DNA of 64,000 bases from positions 90,469-154,468 of the forward strand of contig CAXHJY010001387.1 in assembly GCA_964016885.1 (NCBI GenBank). Direction: 5' to 3'. This stretch comes from Eledone cirrhosa (Eukaryota). Positions 8,321 through 63,885 of this stretch are shown here, one piece after another. The stretch's first letter is position 1; each line of letters starts with the position of its first letter. The translations under genes and the position numbers were made by a program. The notes under the pieces were generated by a model. That model made no database searches and was not told the DNA's origin. It saw only the letters and a list, made by a program, of their open reading frames with translations.

Positions 8321-8324
<4 letters not shown>

Positions 8325-9409
8325 GAATAATCGAGTATCGAAAAATCGGCGCACGAGTTCACGATAAACAAAATTCGAGATGAGCGGCAGAGGGCTCTTT
8401 AATTCAAATAAATTAGAGCTATAACTATCGTTAAATACCGTCACACGTAGAATATGTCTACAATCAACCAAATAACCGAAAAGTTCGATATGGAAGATTC
8501 GGGACACTCAGATAAATTATCAATAAATCAATAAATGAAATGAATGTAAAATGCATACCCGGACCCACTAGAGAGATGGAATATCTAGCTTCTTGGGTTT
8601 CTGTAAATCCTTAAACCGTCATCTATCAGCTCATATAAAAATATAAGCCTTACAGATAATCGGGGGACTGGAGTTACTTCATCAACGAGCTTCGTCCGAA
8701 TGGATAAAAAGATAAGACCCAGGCTAAAAATACGCACATGGATTTCAGCAAGGGAGATAACCTTTATATCCGCAAAAATATTCGGAAAAATGTGGCAAAA
8801 ACACATATCGAATAAGAATGCTCAATAGACATGTTAAAATAAACAGGGGCTATTCATCATTTAATAGAATCGACAAAAAATGAACAATAAAATTAACTGG
8901 TCAATAGCTAAGTCTAGAGCTAAATATAGTAGAATAAACGAGTATCGAAAAATCGGCGCACGAGTTCACGATAAACAAAATTCGAGATGAGCGGCAGAGG
9001 GCTCTATAATTCAAATAAATTAGAGCTATAACTATCGTTAAAATACCGTCACACGTAGAATATGTCTACAATCAACCAAATAACCGAAAAGTTCGATATG
9101 GAAGATTCGGGACACTCAGATAAATTATCAATAAATCAATAAATGAAATGAATGTAAAATGCATACCCGGACCCACTAGAGAGATGGAATATCTAGCTTC
9201 TTGGGTTTCTGTAAATCCTTAAAACCGTCATCTATCAGCTCATATAAAAATATAAGCCTTACAGATAATCGGGGGACTGGAGTTACTTCATCAACGAGCT
9301 TCGTCCGAATGGATAAAAAGATAAGACCCAGGCTAAAAATACGCACATGGATTTCAGCAAGGGAGATAACCTTTATATCCGCAAAAATATTCGGAAAAAT
9401 GTGGCAAAA

Positions 9410-9410
<1 letters not shown>
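8321..9410 (-). mobile_element. Non-coding hammerhead tandem element, family F1 (607-bp unit x1.8), retrozyme-like
   Basis: Direct repeat with period 607 (8321/8928). (TA)n on both sides. Homologous to 37361-37805 and 62461-63885. One hammerhead and one bulged hairpin per full unit. Confidence 0.85.
8557..8690 (-). ncRNA. Expanded type I hammerhead (F1); second copy at 9165-9299
   Basis: gctcg-TTGATGA-A-GTAA..(~80 nt)..TTAC-A-GAAAC-CCA..TGG-GTC^-cgggt. Confidence 0.7.
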
Positions 9411-10494: not shown

Positions 10495-13400
10495 ATGATG
10501 TTCCAGAACAATATAAAAGAGATAATTGGCAATTTAGGTTCTGGAACAAAAAAGATCATTGGCAATAAGGGCAGGGGCCCCAGGTTATCACAGCCTGGGC
10601 CCGCTCGTCATCGTGCCATTGTAATAGAGCCAAACAAGGCATTTAGTCTTGGCTGCTGGAACGTACGGACGCTGCTTGACAGGGATTCCTTGGGGCGTCC
10701 TGAACGAAGGACCGCTCTTGTTGCAAAGGAGCTTCGACGTTACGATCTTGACATCGTGGCTTTATCTGAGACGAGGCTAGCTGGAGGTGGTCATCTTACG
10801 GAATTTTGTGGAGAATATACATTCTTCTGGAAAGGAAGAGATGAAGGAACCAGAGAGAGGCTGGGGTAGGATTTGCTGTTAAGACTGCTTGTGAACAAAT
10901 TAGAAGAATTCCCAGTAGGGATTAGTGAGCGTCTTATGTCCATGAGAGTTCCGCTGGACAAGGGAAAATATGCTACCCTGGTGAGTGTGTATGCTCCAAC
11001 TATGAGTTCTGTCGATGAGGAAAAGGTGTCCTTTTACCATGCCTTGAAAGGTGTTTTAAGAAATATCCCTCAGGCAGACAAAGTCATCGTGCTTGGTGAC
11101 TTTAATGCTAGAGTGGGTAGGGATTTTAACACATGGAATGTAATCGGAAGGCATGGGGTGGGAAAGTGTAACAGCAATGGTATGCTCCTGCTCCAGATGT
11201 GTGAGGAGCTGGATCTGTGTGTTACCAACACCATGTTCCAACAAAAGAACAAATTCAAGACCACATGGATGCATCCTGCATCTAAGGAATGGCATCTTTT
11301 GGACTACGTCCTAGTCAGGATGCGTGACAGACAGGATGTGCAGTGTGTTCGTGTTCTTCGTGGAGCTGAGTGCTGGACGGACCACCGCCTGGTACGCGCA
11401 AAAGTGAAACTAATCACTAAACGTAAAATCCGGGCTCCTGGTCTTGCCCTGCCCAAAAGATTGAATGCTGCTCGTCTTAAGGATAAAAATGTGAAGAGGA
11501 CATTGGAAGAAGAGATGCAGGCTGCAGATCTTGGTGAGGATTGGCCGACCCTTAAAAAGTCGGTTTATGATGTAGGCAGGCGTGTTCTGGGATTGGCGCA
11601 GAGGAGACATCAGGACTGGTTTGATGAGAATGATGTACATATAGAAGACTTGTTGGGTGATAAGAGGCGTGCTCTGTCACGCTACTTGACGGCAAAACCA
11701 CAGGAGAGGAATACGTTGCATGAGGAACTCAGGGATGTAAAATCATGTGTTAGGCGGAGTCTTTCTCAGATGAAGGATCAGTGGTGGAGTGAGAAGGCTG
11801 GTGAGATACAAACTGCGTCTGATTCCAATAACACAAAGCTGTTGTACAGTCTCTTGCGTGAGGTTTATGGACCGTCTTCTTCTTTGGTGACACCGCTTCG
11901 CAGCAAGGATGGCAAAGAACTTCTTCGTGACTCACAAGGAATTCTACGAAGGTGGCGAGAGCACTTTGGTGATCTTTTGAATCAGCCGTCTGTCGTCAGT
12001 GAAGATTTCCTCAATCTCATTCCAGAAAGTCCTGTGAAAGTAGCTCTCGCAGAACCTCCGACGCTTGTGGAGGTTGCAGTGGCTATTTCGAAGCTGAACA
12101 GTGGAAGATCTCCAGGTATGGATGGCATACATGCTGAGCTCCTACAATATGGTGGTGAGAGACTCCTGCAACATCTTCACTCTTTGTTTGGCAGGATATG
12201 GGCTAATGAATCCGTACCTGAGGACTGGAGAGATGCAGTAATGGTGGTCTTGTACAAGGGAAAGGGTAACAGGAACGATTGTGGGAACTACAGAGGTATA
12301 TCATTGCTTTCTGTCGTAGGGAAAGTTTTATGTAGGGTGCTTCTGGACCGTCTGCTGACACACATTGCAGATTGTGTTCTTCCTGAAAGTCAATCTGGTT
12401 TTCGTGCTGGACGCGGCACTACTGATATGATTTTCTCAGCTAGACAGCTCCAGGAGAAGTGCATGGAACAAGGCTTGGATCTGTATCAGGTTTTTGTTGA
12501 TCTGACAAAAGCTTTCGATACTGTTAACAGAGATGCATTATGGAAGGTTCTCCAGAAACTTGGTTGCCCTGATAAGTTCCTTGCTTTAGTTAGGTCTTTC
12601 CATGACGACATGAAGGCTTGGGTTAATGTCGGGGGTAACATGTCGGAGCCTATCTCAGTAAAAAATGGAGTGAAACAGGGGGATATTCCAGCACCGACCC
12701 TCTTTGCCATATACTTTGCAATGGTTTTCTGTATTGCATTCAGGAATTGCGAGCATGGTGTTTACATCCGATATCGAACCTCAGGCAGCATATTTAACAT
12801 CAGGCGCTTTGCTGCGAAGACAAAAGTATTTACATCAATCATAAGAGACCTCTTGTATGCAGATGATTGCGATCTTGTAGCGCACACAGAGAGTGATATG
12901 CAACACATTTTGAATGCATTTTCTGACGCTTGCACTGCCCTAGGTCTGACTGTCAGTCTCAAGAAAACCGTCGTCATGTACCAACCTGCCCCTGGTAAGC
13001 AGTACACTGAACCAAACATCTATGTGTATGGCAAACGACTTGGAGTGGTTGATCAGTTTGTCTACCTGGGAAGCACTGTCAATCGATACAGCAACCGTGA
13101 CAGTGAAATCTCACTTAGGATTAGGAAAGCAAGTGATGCTTTCGGAAAGCTAGAAAGGCGACTCTGGGGTTGGCGAGACATATGCAGGAGGACAAAGGTA
13201 AAGGTGTACAGGGCATGTGTGCTCTCTTGTCTTCTTTATGCCTGCAAGACCTGGGTCACATATCGATACCACCTTAAGCAATTGGAGCGTTTCCATCAGA
13301 TGTGTCTCAGACGGATCCATGGCGTTCACTGGAGGGACCACATCAGTGATGTCGAGATTTTGGAAAGCTCTATGTGTGACAGTATAGAAGCTCTTGTGCT

Positions 13401-14037
13401 TAAGCAACGACTCCGTTGGAGTGGTCACCTTGCCAGGATGAAGGATTCTAGAATACCAAAACAACTCTTTTATGGAGAGTTGGTTAAAGGAAAACGACCG
13501 CCACATAAACCAAAAAAGAGGTATAAGGATTCCTTGAAAGCCTCTCTGAAAGACGCTAACATCTCTGCTGATACATGGGAGAATATTGCTGCTGATCGTA
13601 ATAAATGGAGAAAGACTGTATATGAGGGAAACGTTGCCTTTGAGGCATCTTGAATCGCATACGAGAAAGTAAAGCGGGATGTGAGGAAGGGCATTGCTGT
13701 TGCACTTCCAGACAGCGAGGGTCCTCCTATGGTGCTGACATACAGCGTATGTGCGAGACTCTGCCTAAGCAAAGCTGGACTCGAAAGTCATCTTCGCAGT
13801 CATAAAGTAAGACCAGTGGTTGACTACCAGGCTGCTGTTAGAGATGCTACTCATCATGCTTGCCAAACATGTGGTAGAGAATGTAAATCAGCAGGAGGGC
13901 TCAAGCGACATGCAAAAGTACATGAACTCCAACCACAGCCGACTATTCCCAGTGAATGTTTTGGTTGCCGACTCTGTGCAAGACATTTTATATCATTAGC
14001 TGGGCTAAAAAGCCACATTCGATCGCAGCGCTGTTAG
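10495..14037 (+). pseudogene. RTE ORF: APE endonuclease, reverse transcriptase, three C-terminal C2H2-like zinc fingers; lightly disrupted
   Basis: WNVRTL, LSETRL, GDFNARVG, TDHRLV, GVKQG, LLYADD. Frameshift/stop at ~10855-10890 and in-frame TGA at 13651. CQTCGRECKSAGGLKRHAKVH-type fingers follow. Confidence 0.9.
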
Positions 14038-27004: not shown

Positions 27005-28707
27005 GATAAATCTACCAAAATATACGGTAGTGTCCAATCCGTATGAAGAACTCAATGTAATCCAAATATCACGAAAAGAGAAAATGTATTCAAAGTTTTT
27101 TCGATGAAAAACACAGGAAAACAGAGTCAAGATAAATTAATAAAAATAATGAATAAAAACAAACGGTCAAATTTTCCTACTCCACAACCAAAAATATACA
27201 ACAAAATATAAGTGCCTACAATGCATATAAATGTGATAAAAAAAAACATGAATATACCACCAACACATCAAACTAACCATAATACTAAAATAAACCACAG
27301 CAAACCACCATCTCATTCACATACAACAAGTCGAGAAAATTCCACACCTAATTTGATTAACTCCCCTGATATAACATTCACGAAAGGTTGTAACTGTAGA
27401 AACAAAGCAAATTGCCCATTAAAAGGAAATTGCCTTATTAATAACATAGTATATAAATGTAAAATTAGCACTAAGGACTCAACTTATTCATATATAGGAG
27501 CTACTTCTAACCAATTTAAAGTAAGATTTAATACCCACAAACACAGTTTTAAAAATGCCGCATTAGCTAATACAACATCTTTAGCTGAAATAATGAATAA
27601 TTATAGAAAAAAGAATATCGATTATAACCTGACCTGGAGTGTGCTCAAAAGGGCCACCCCTTATCAAAATAATAGATATGAATGTAGATTATGTTCCCAG
27701 GAACTTTTTGAAATAATGAAATCTAAGGATATCCTATTAAATAAGCGACAAGAATTAATTATATCGTGCAATCATAGAATTAGAAAAACTTTCAAAAGTT
27801 ATAAACCTAATTAAAATACACTTATATTTTACAAATTATTATAATTAATTTTTTTAAAATTAGTTAACCTATAATTAATATTCTACTACTAAGAACTGCA
27901 TAATTTTATTTCCCTTTTACAGCTATCTTTTCCTAAAATTTATACTATTTTAATTTCCTGTTCTGAATCTAAATTCCTTGTAATCTATATAAGTTTGTTA
28001 TTTCTCACAAATACATTTATCCCCCCCCCCCCAAAAAAAAAATTGTTTTCCTTCGTTTTTAACAACATTCTTTAATAACATCTAACTCTTATTTATCATA
28101 TCTATATGAATTAATATAAATTTATCCCTATAAATATACCTATCAATTAAATTAATTTAATTTCTTTTTATAGATCTAAATTCCTTATGTTTTAAATAAG
28201 ATTGATATTTTTCACTAACACATTTATCGTAAAATTTTATTCTCCTTAGATTTTAACATTAGAATTATTCTTTAATAACATCAAATTTTCGTGTACCTTT
28301 CACCGGATTGACCTATTTTCATCCCCAAAGTTATCTTTTCATTCAAAATACTCTTTCCATTCAAAACTGAAGTCTGCATTCCTCTACCCCTAAATTAAAT
28401 TTCTACTACTACTATTCTATCAACTTGACCACTTACTACTTTTTTATTGGTCAATTCAAAACCTGTTCCCAAACAGACCTATTATATTAAATCTTTGTTG
28501 GTTCTCTTCAATAAACAGATATCATTATTTCTGAAGACAGCATATATATGTGTAGGTATGTATATTCCCTCTGATAGTTTGTAACATTTTTACATAGATC
28601 TATATGATATACATACCAACACACACATATATATCCTAGAAACGATCGTAAAATGATGAATTTTTTAATATAAGGAACTGTTTCTTTGTTTTTATTCATT
28701 ATTTTTA

Positions 28708-37360: not shown

Positions 37361-37362
<2 letters not shown>

Positions 37363-37802
37363 TGTTGCCTCCCTTGCTGAACCCCACGTGGGGTCAGTTA
37401 CAGACACATCTATGTGGACATTCGAACTGAATCCCGTTGACAACGCGTACTCCCAGTTCGGTCAGAATACCAGATGCCTAACATCCTTTATGTAAGTGGA
37501 CAGTAAATGACTTATGGAGCCGCAGAAACCCAAATACTGGATTTTACCATCTCACCATGGGTCCGGGTAAATTTTCAACCATGTATATTTTTATATATTT
37601 TTATATTTGTATATCTGTTTGACCCGAATTAGGCGGTCGATTTTTCGCTGTGCGGGTGATTAGTTTAACCACCATCTCAGTGTGTTTGGCCTTTAACGTA
37701 AGTTGTAAGCTCTAATTCATATGAATTATCGAGCGCTTGCCACACAACTCGGAAGTGTTTTTTGTTATTCCTGAGCTGAAATTCGATTCTCGCTAATTTT
37801 TA

Positions 37803-37805
<3 letters not shown>
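37361..37805 (+). mobile_element. Diverged 5'-truncated F1 monomer with hammerhead (37433-37567)
   Basis: Shares ctcccttgctgaa, cgttgacaacg, cagaaaccca, tgggtccgggta, gctctaatt and the same 3' end at (TA)n. Confidence 0.8.
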
Positions 37806-60000: not shown

Positions 60001-62460
<2,460 letters not shown>

Positions 62461-63885
62461 AGAAAGATCGAGTATCGAAAAAATCGGCGCACGAGTTTCA
62501 CGAAAAAACGAAATTCGATATGAGCGGCAGAGGGCTCAATAATTCAGATGAATCAGAGCTATAAACTATCGTTAAAATACCGTCACATATAGAACAAGTC
62601 TACAATCAACCATACGATTTAAAATCGATAAAGGAAGATTCGGGCCAAACAGATAAAAAAATATCAATAAAAACAATACGTCAATAATTTAAATGAATGT
62701 AAAATCATACCCGGACCCACTAGAAAGGTGTTAAAATCTAGCTTCATGGGTTTCTGTAAATCCTTAGACAGTACTCTATCAGCTCACATATAAATATAAA
62801 AGCCTACTAGAATAAGTGGAACGGAGTTTACGTTGTCAACGAGTTTTATCCTGGCGGCAAAGGAGTCAACTAGCGGTGAAAAAACGCACATGGCATTAGA
62901 CAAGGGAGATGACCCCTATATCCGCGAAAACAATTCGAGTGAATGTGGAAATACACATATCGAATTAGAGTGCTCAATAGACATGTTAAAATAAAAACAA
63001 AAGCTATTCATCACTCAATAGGATCGACAAAAAAATGAGCAATAAAAATTAACTGGTGGATAGCTATGTCCAGAGCTAAATATATTAGAAAGATCGAGTA
63101 TCGAAAAAATCGGCGCACGAGTTCACGAAAAAACGAAATTCGATATGAGCGGCAGAGGGGCTCAATAATTCAGATGAATCAGAGCTATAACTATCGTTAA
63201 AAATACCGTCACATATAGAACAAGTCTACAATCAACCATACGATTTAAAATCGATAAAGGAAGATTCGGGCCAAACAGATAAAAAATATCAATAAAACAA
63301 TACGTCAATAATTTAAATGAATGTAAAATCATACCCGGACCCACTAGAAAGGTGTTAAATCTAGCTTCATGGGTTTCTGTAAATCCTTAGACAGTACTCT
63401 ATCAGCTCACATATAAATATAAAAGCCTACTAGAATAAGTGGAACGGAGTTTACGTTGTCAACGAGTTTTATCCTGGCGGCAAAGGAGTCAACTAGCGGT
63501 GAAAAAACGCACATGGCATTAGACAAGGGAGATGACCCCTATATCCGCGAAAAACAATTCGAGTGAATGTGGAAATACACATATCGAATTAGAGTGCTCA
63601 ATAGACATGTTAAAATAAAACAAAAGCTATTCATCACTCAATAGGATCGACAAAAAAATGAGCAATAAAAATTAACTGGTGGATAGCTATGTCCAGAGCT
63701 AAATATATTAGAAAGATCGAGTATCGAAAAATCGGCGCACGAGTTTCACGAAAAACGAAATTCGATATGAGCGGCAGAGGGCTCAATAATTCAGATGAAT
63801 CAGAGCTATAACTATCGTTAAAATACCGTCACATATAGAACAAGTCTACAATCAACCATACGATTTAAAATCGATAAAGGAAGAT
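62461..63885 (-). mobile_element. F1 hammerhead tandem element (~625-bp unit x2.3); hammerheads at 62709-62844 and 63333-63467
   Basis: Unit starts 62461/63087/63710; actcg-TTGACAA-C-GTAAA..TTTAC-A-GAAAC-CCA..TGG-GTC^-cgggt. Confidence 0.85.

What the first reader, a model, noticed from the sequence alone, without database searches (positions are those of the whole stretch)
8557..8690. F1 hammerhead: ~135-nt expanded fold with a non-canonical core supported by three-way covariation
Comparing 8557-8690, 37433-37567 and 62709-62844: stem I gctcg/cccg/actcg pairs with cggg(t); stem II base GTAA/TTAC, GCG/CGC, GTAAA/TTTAC; stem III ACCCA/TGGGT with GUC site. The core is TTGACAA in two variants and TTGATGA in one. 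Established: positions 3 and 8 form a tertiary pair, so U3-A8 is the compensatory form of C3-G8 and U3-G8 should be weaker. Stems II and III carry ~80 and ~25 nt of extra structure, so standard CUGANGA searches would miss it.
Basis: partly seen in the sequence, partly recalled or inferred. Interest (0 to 1): 0.75.

Follow-up and report, generated by a model that had tools for sequence, protein, structure and literature searches.

The report
Pseudoknotted long-arm hammerhead in animal retrozyme
This is a hammerhead self-cutting-RNA motif with long arms, a loosened core and a predicted pseudoknot, carried by over 4,000 copies of a 600-base jumping repeat; truncated genomic copies begin unusually often exactly at the predicted cut, so it likely cuts in the living animal, though cutting has not been assayed.

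Summary
The motif is real: a type I hammerhead in each unit of a ~600-bp non-coding repeat inserted in (TA)n (4,309 full matches, 0 in the control). It is a Penelope-type retrozyme. Two of the three named copies are on the minus strand.

Position 3 is U in 98.5% of copies while position 8 toggles (U-A 3,140, U-G 1,106, C-A 62, C-G 1); C3-G8 is the rule only in sister families.

Of 81 junction hits near the site, 23 start exactly at the predicted cut, including U3-G8 lineages, which is indirect evidence of cleavage in vivo. 3' ends are fixed ~240 nt downstream and arrays read through the cut, fitting a circular template.

Each core oddity has a printed precedent. This scan earlier noted other U3-A8, long-stem hammerheads elsewhere in this genome. 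No RNA data or cleavage assay. New variant of a known kind.

The parts
8557..8697 (-).
8694..8697 (-). Pseudoknot 5' strand (GGAC), predicted to pair with 8665-8668
8665..8668 (-). Pseudoknot 3' strand (GUCC) in the first internal loop of stem II
8686..8690 (-). Stem I 5' strand; pairs with 8557-8561
8678..8685 (-). Core U3 U4 G5 A6 U7 G8 A9 plus the extra nucleotide (8678)
8603..8677 (-). Extended stem II, 75-nt irregular hairpin starting with the G-C pair
   Evidence: z -5.4 for this copy
8598..8602 (-). Extra A (8602) followed by G12 A13 A14 A15.1
8563..8598 (-). Stem III, 36 nt: 4 bp, 5-nt bulge, 6 bp, 11-nt loop
8561..8562 (-). Predicted scissile bond, C17 (8562) / C1.1 (8561)
   Evidence: hammerhead consensus; 5' junction peak at this bond, statistics
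8322..9410 (-). Family A retrozyme insertion, about 1.8 units of 608 bp between (TA)n runs; fixed 3' end at 8322, truncated 5' end; second hammerhead at 9165-9306
37361..37804 (+). Family B insertion, about 0.7 unit, between (TA)n runs; hammerhead 37424-37568 (U3-A8, pseudoknot GAAC 37424-37427 with GUUC 37456-37459), predicted cut 37563/37564
62460..63885 (-). Family C insertion, about 2.3 units; hammerheads 62709-62851 and 63333-63474 (U3-A8), predicted cuts 62714/62713 and 63338/63337

Best explanation
The motif is a type I hammerhead present once per unit of a 600-bp non-coding tandem repeat inserted in (TA)n, and it likely cuts its own transcript at GUC^CGGG to give unit-length RNAs that are probably ligated into circles and copied back into the genome by a Penelope-like element's enzymes. 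Shown: the fold and its conservation, copy number, (TA)n targets, fixed 3' ends about 240 nt downstream of the cut, scattered 5' ends with a peak at the cut, arrays that run through the cut. Inferred: a 4-5 bp pseudoknot between the 5' tail of stem I and the first internal loop of stem II docks stems I and II and lets the core work despite a wobble or mismatch at 3-8 and a 1x1 mismatch at the base of stem II; the well-formed stem III lets it act as a monomer; reverse transcription is primed by nicked (TA)n DNA annealing to an internal UAUAU of the RNA and goes round the template until it falls off. Untested: transcription, cleavage rate, circles, the identity of the partner element.
For: Copy number and control. 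Fold: (stem II z below -1 in 23 of 28 representatives). Core kept when left free in the pattern: 92 of the 100 listed matches have exact AGAAA and UC, all departures scattered (that pattern excludes families A and C). Pseudoknot: pair 2 Watson-Crick in 27 of 28 (15 A-U, 12 G-C; shuffle mean 14.1), pair 4 27 of 28, pair 5 18 of 28 (A-U, U-A, G-C; shuffle mean 8.9), flanking pairs at chance; on the tree pair 2 goes A-U to G-U to G-C; the same GAAC/GUUC match is seen in the C3-G8 sister family. Junction peak: 23 of 81 hits start at +1; at the six G/C positions without TA microhomology the counts are 1, 0, 23, 5, 2, 6 (P 7e-10; each of three clade searches separately P 0.005, 0.0009, 0.00002); control site 0, 0, 2, 0 at four such positions; sister family also peaks at its own predicted cut (7 of 17 hits). 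Ends and arrays; units differ by 0-2 nt within arrays and 0-7 between (20 units). An RT/GIY-YIG-type Penelope-like family in the same genome has a hammerhead with the same C-A mismatch and a 101-nt stem II downstream of its endonuclease in 16 of 20 loci.
Against: No cleavage assay. In one deep mutational scan only the G3-C8 swap rescued and other changes in that region had low activity (PMC9901934, passages), and PLE hammerheads cut slowly in vitro (PMC4209133). In 280-nt context the hammerhead fold is 1.2 to 9.7 kcal/mol above the minimum-energy fold when the pseudoknot is not counted. The pseudoknot shrinks to 3 bp plus a U-U in the youngest family C copies, pairs 1 and 3 were fixed by my anchor rule, and related sequences inflate the shuffle test. 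Junction classes were read by eye; microhomology positions at the control site hold 5-6 junctions each, close to the 8 at +1, so the peak is clear only against positions without microhomology. No autonomous element homologous to the repeat was found; the only link to a specific PLE family is one fused copy (L099, 1 of 65 loci).
Confidence: 0.72

Rival explanations
1. The ribozyme cuts, but there is no RNA circle: arrays come from long linear read-through transcripts that are cut only rarely, or from DNA-level expansion after insertion.
For: A slow core would leave most sites uncut; only a small minority of 5' ends stop at the cut; one long array carries a variant in a subset of its units (C1:119.98-120.00 Mb), as unequal crossing-over would give.
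Against: Arrays of 26 or more 615-nt units would need very long linear templates; units are nearly identical within arrays and carry array-specific variants; circles are documented for related retrozymes of coral and mussel (PMC7229834, section 14 and passages).
Confidence: 0.2
2. The motif is a degenerate hammerhead that no longer cuts; it is kept as a structural or protein-binding signal, and the junction peak comes from reverse transcriptase stalling or another nuclease.
For: Position 3-8 drifts through U-A, C-A and U-G without returning to C-G; stem II starts with a mismatch; the hammerhead fold is not the minimum-energy fold in longer context.
Against: The catalytic positions stay fixed across subfamilies that are only 66-80% alike; the peak is at the single bond that hammerhead chemistry predicts, in four separate searches, and the two positions just 5' of the GUC have 0-1 junctions.
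Confidence: 0.1
3. The core is read one nucleotide out of register: an insertion after A6 makes the variable purine position 7, keeps U3-A8 in nearly all copies, and makes the A/C nucleotide position 9.
For: It would explain why that purine toggles freely while U3 is fixed; an insertion after A6 is known and weakly active (PMC3088659, section 8).
Against: It puts C at position 9 in families B and C, breaking the G12-A9 pair; sister families with the same extra nucleotides keep C3-G8 in the standard register (that pattern required G8).
Confidence: 0.08

Closest known systems
Metazoan non-LTR retrozymes (Cervera and de la Pena 2020, PMC7229834, passages and section 14; Li, Clavereau and Pollet 2026, bioRxiv 10.64898/2026.07.22.740005, parts 1-2 of 5)
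   Same: Non-coding tandem repeats, monomer to long multimer, one type I hammerhead per unit, thousands of copies, co-existing with Penelope-like elements; 608-650 nt is inside the 51-972 bp range reported.
   Different: Their hammerheads are compact with a C3-G8 core and typical helix sizes; here stem II is 73-81 nt, stem III 33-37 nt and well formed, the core is U3-R8 with a 1x1 mismatch, and the tertiary contact is a predicted pseudoknot. RNA circles are shown for them, not here.
Hammerheads of Penelope-like element pLTRs, including the Schistosoma mansoni Cercyon U3-A8 variant (Cervera and de la Pena 2014, PMC4209133, main text parts 1-2 of 4 and supplement parts 1-2 of 3)
   Same: U3-A8 core (about 1,300 hits there); conserved extra nucleotide between 9 and 10.1; short stem I of 4-5 bp; G10.1-C11.1 kept. 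In their Fig. S3 text one Saccoglossus row has U3 with G8, and one row (the Cotesia bracovirus PLE, if the PDF's text order holds) has an A before GAAA.
   Different: Those have a minimal or palindromic stem III, need dimers, have a 7-8 bp stem II and no recognised tertiary contact.
Pseudoknot-stabilised hammerheads, e.g. human C10orf118 type I (Perreault et al. 2011, PMC3088659, passages and section 8)
   Same: Watson-Crick pseudoknot of 4 or more pairs between stems I and II; about 40% of their set; truncating it inactivates the ribozyme. Also reports natural U3-A8 and a U-U mismatch at 10.1-11.1.
   Different: Here the stem II partner is an internal loop with about 55 nt of further hairpin beyond it, in a high-copy mobile repeat, combined with a wobble-tolerant core.

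Membership tests
Type I hammerhead ribozyme | Three helices around the core, ends in stem I | tested here: met
Type I hammerhead ribozyme | U4 G5 A6, A9, G12 A13 A14, A15.1-U16.1, H17 conserved | tested here: met
   3' half left free (92 of 100 listed exact); 5' half present at the right distance in 4,309 of 5,274 sites
Type I hammerhead ribozyme | Watson-Crick pair between positions 3 and 8 | tested here: inconclusive
   U-A 3,140, C-G 1, U-G 1,106, C-A 62 of 4,309: met in 73%, wobble or mismatch in 27%
Type I hammerhead ribozyme | Stem II begins directly between A9 and G12 | tested here: not met
   one extra nucleotide on each side in all but 17 copies; a variant with precedent in PMC4209133 and PMC3088659
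Type I hammerhead ribozyme | [quoted passage not shown] | tested here: met
   covarying pseudoknot, (prediction from sequence)
Type I hammerhead ribozyme | Site-specific self-cleavage after H17 | not testable with these tools
   indirect only: 5' junction peak at that bond
Rfam hammerhead families | Match to an Rfam covariance model | tested here: not met
   8322-9410, E<=10: 4 matches, none a ribozyme; five sister-family loci, none at gathering score
Non-LTR retrozyme | Non-coding tandem units each with a type I hammerhead | tested here: met
Non-LTR retrozyme | Dispersed, retrotransposon-like insertions | tested here: met
   fixed 3' ends, variable 5' ends, (TA)n on both sides, many contigs
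Non-LTR retrozyme | Expressed as circular RNA | not testable with these tools
   no RNA holder listed
Non-LTR retrozyme | Derived from or mobilised by a Penelope-like element | tested here: inconclusive
   shared hammerhead layout and (TA)n target with an autonomous-type PLE; one fused copy; no homologous pLTR found

The most novel reading that the evidence does not exclude
A natural hammerhead lineage has escaped the requirement for a Watson-Crick 3-8 pair, cutting in vivo with U3-G8 and C3-A8 cores because a pseudoknot into a long stem II holds the active fold; and its insertions record the whole Penelope-type cycle in DNA: cut at the ribozyme, re-ligation to a circle, priming at a fixed internal UAUAU by nicked (TA)n DNA, and rolling reverse transcription through the sealed cut.
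Probability: 0.4. Interest if true: 0.72.

Novelty: new variant of a known kind. Interest (0 to 1): 0.5.

Why it matters
Craig et al. 2021 (bioRxiv 10.1101/2021.04.23.441226, passages) call hammerhead function in endonuclease-bearing Penelope-like elements unclear. A junction peak at the scissile bond is a DNA-only readout that such a ribozyme cuts in the germ line, and it can be applied to any family with enough copies. The family is also a natural mutant series (U-A, U-G, C-A, C-G at 3-8, on a resolved tree, with a covarying pseudoknot) for asking how peripheral contacts relax core requirements.

Tried and rejected
Rfam on the whole window gave only microsatellite-driven miRNA matches among the 150 of 334 rows listed. 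Expression: no RNA holder listed; the three runs laid were contig sets of one sample and add nothing on expression. Autonomous partner: a family profile was run on 110 loci that include the PLE and GIY-YIG hits and on 66 PLE loci; it found no homologous pLTR, only neighbours and one fused copy (L099). In L139 a long-stem hammerhead element sits upstream of a PLE ORF but is separated from it by a (TA)n run, so I rejected it as a pLTR; 30 relatives showed no consistent ORF. Only 2 of 30 top GIY-YIG loci showed a hammerhead downstream with my scanner. Two-armed inverted insertions, noted earlier for other retrozymes in this genome, are rare here within the flanks held: 2 of 124 overlapping loci had hits on both strands. 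First junction search was swamped by overlapping matches; first control site was uninformative because the native sequence itself matched. One search added nothing. The MAFFT alignment with the 5' flank misaligns the pseudoknot strand, so pairs were counted with an anchored script instead; 2 of 57 motifs had no anchor and were dropped. Circular folding ran for family A only (hammerhead fold 3.2 kcal/mol above the minimum, 62% paired); the script failed on family C. Sequence look-ups in the scan's earlier notes found no look-alike. Przybilski and Hammann 2007, Lunse et al. 2016 and Nelson and Uhlenbeck 2008 are not held, so measured rates for U3-G8 and C3-A8 and further PLE variants could not be checked.

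Full report
OBSERVATION. The three stretches exist as described, but two are on the minus strand. Read in the right sense each is: stem I 5' strand, UUGANRA, one extra nucleotide (A or C), a 75-79 nt stem II opening with G-C, one extra A, GAAA, a 35-36 nt stem III, GUC, then CGGGU. Each motif lies in a unit of a ~600-bp repeat: 1.8 units at 8322-9410, 0.7 unit at 37361-37804 and 2.3 units at 62460-63885, every insertion flanked by (TA)n. The 3' half of the motif has 5,274 exact matches in G000 (control 2) and the full motif 4,309 (control 0). Family A has at least 40 identical copies of the 181-nt region on five contigs. Rfam sees nothing here.

WHAT COVARIES. On 27 subfamily representatives RNAalifold predicts the three-way junction without help; 5 of 17 pairs, all in stem II, change on both sides; stem I changes on one side only; the stem III base is invariant, partly because my pattern fixed it. 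To remove that bias I left seven core positions free: 92 of the first 100 listed matches kept exact AGAAA and UC, and the extra A was present in all 100 (which excludes families A and C). Only 17 copies lack the extra A. The stem II extension folds as an irregular hairpin with z below -1 in 23 of 28 representatives. On a tree built without those columns U-A is in the deepest clades at the midpoint root, C-A marks a grade of subfamilies, and G8 appears and is lost more than once. C3-G8 is the rule in sister families with the same two extra nucleotides (119 matches, control 1, a pattern that required G8), one of which is homologous over most of the unit. So U-A versus C-G covaries between families, while within this family the pair drifts through wobble and mismatch.

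A G-R-A-C 8-10 nt upstream of the core matches G-U-Y-C in the first internal loop of stem II. In 28 representatives pair 2 is Watson-Crick in 27 (15 A-U, 12 G-C; shuffled mean 14.1), pair 4 in 27 (25 C-G, 2 A-U), pair 5 in 18 (8 A-U, 5 U-A, 5 G-C; shuffled mean 8.9), and the pairs on either side are at chance. Relatedness inflates such shuffles; on the tree pair 2 changes once, by way of a G-U intermediate, pair 4 once, and pair 5 several times. Pairs 1 and 3 were fixed by my anchor rule.

DOES IT CUT? There is no RNA data. The insertions give an indirect test. 3' ends are fixed about 240 nt after the predicted cut, at an internal TATAT, and 5' ends are scattered. If some templates end at the cut, 5' junctions should pile up at +1. 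Three searches, one per clade, for an A/T run followed by element sequence near the site gave 30, 26 and 25 hits. Read by eye: +1 has 8, 7 and 8; +2 has 5 in all, +3 2, +4 6 (only could see +4, and those may be microsatellite), -3 0, -4 1; positions where the element's own preceding base is A or T, plus two C-starts at -6, hold 7 (-1/-2) and 18 (-5 to -7); 19 hits were unrelated or ambiguous and were left out. Over the six positions without microhomology, 23 of 37 fall on +1 (P 7e-10; separately 0.005, 0.0009, 0.00002). At a control site near the 3' end, 17 of 23 hits sit at three microhomology positions and the four positions without it hold 0, 0, 2, 0. The C3-G8 sister family peaks at its own predicted cut (7 of 17 hits, three of them clustered and perhaps one event). 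Five of the eight +1 junctions carry a downstream signature that went with U3-G8 in 13 of 13 sampled motifs. The peak is modest, about the size of a microhomology peak, but it falls on the one bond that hammerhead chemistry predicts.

MECHANISM. Most likely: tandem copies are transcribed; the hammerhead, docked by the pseudoknot, cuts once per unit; units are sealed into circles; a Penelope-like endonuclease nicks (TA)n, the DNA end anneals to the internal UAUAU, and reverse transcription runs round the circle, through the sealed cut, until it stops at random; the few templates still linear stop at +1. Units differ by 0-2 nt within arrays and 0-7 between, as one template per array would give. 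Transcription, ligation, priming and the partner are inferred from retrozyme and PLE biology (PMC7229834; PMC4209133; bioRxiv 10.64898/2026.07.22.740005). An abundant PLE family here also ends in (TA)n and has a hammerhead with the same C-A mismatch and a 101-nt stem II (16 of 20 loci), and one retrozyme fragment is fused to it (L099, 1 of 65), but no homologous autonomous element was found. Against activity: the hammerhead fold is 1.2-9.7 kcal/mol above the minimum in 280-nt context without the pseudoknot; a mutational scan of another hammerhead found low activity for changes in this region other than G3-C8 (PMC9901934, passages).

COMPARISON. It works like a metazoan non-LTR retrozyme and meets the sequence-level criteria; circles are untested. 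Each core oddity has a precedent: U3-A8 (PMC3088659 section 8; PMC4209133), the nucleotide between 9 and 10.1 (PMC4209133), a mismatch at the base of stem II (U-U, PMC3088659), and, in the text of Fig. S3 of PMC4209133, one row with U3 and G8 and one with an A before GAAA (the PDF's row order is assumed). A search for U3-G8, U3G8, C3-A8 or C3A8 with hammerhead found no main text holding them; hammerhead with octopus gave 5 papers, 4 listed, none on such a family by title. Lunse et al. 2016 and Przybilski and Hammann 2007 could not be read and may cover more variants; bioRxiv supplements were closed. The scan's own notes list other U3-A8, long-stem hammerheads in this genome (unchecked, no sequence match to this family). 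What I did not find described is the combination: long stems II and III, a covarying pseudoknot into an internal loop, a 3-8 position drifting off Watson-Crick in over a quarter of copies, and a genomic footprint at the cut.

VERDICT. Real feature, new variant of a known kind, interest 0.5.

Noticed in passing
window 27239-28700 (+): 5'-truncated Penelope-like element (GIY-YIG-type end, very abundant family) whose 3' region holds a C3-G8 hammerhead at about 28523-28658 with a C-A mismatch at the base of a 101-nt stem II and a palindromic short stem III; seen in 16 of 20 loci.
   Followed up: partly
L113-L117, L120, L129, L130: Homologous 650-nt sister family with C3-G8, the same A-A mismatch and pseudoknot match, and a 90-nt stem III; its 5' junctions also peak at its predicted cut.
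   Followed up: partly
L118, L121, L122, L132, L136, L139: Several older, diverse C3-G8 hammerhead families with 74-92 nt stem II and the extra A before GAAA; none reaches an Rfam threshold in the five loci tested.
   Followed up: partly
L099 (G000:C2:287060358-287063903): A fragment of this retrozyme is fused without a TA spacer to the 5' side of a truncated PLE, with no remainder downstream: template switch or later deletion.
   Followed up: partly
G000:C11:17042724, C3:368564732, C3:199732458: Short tandem duplications of the first 12-15 nt after the predicted cut that restart at or next to +1, as if reverse transcriptase reached a template end and re-primed.
   Followed up: no
window +5108, +32936, +53942, -3246, -26867, -35347, -43513: Seven further short hammerhead-like motifs of Penelope type; several families have U-U, C-A or A-G at the base of stem II.
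   Followed up: no
window about 10600-14030 (+): Long coding-like stretch that looks like an endonuclease-reverse transcriptase LINE by eye; not scanned.
   Followed up: no
window 60001-62459: A 2.4-kb degenerate (TA)n array abutting the 3' end of the family C insertion.
   Followed up: no
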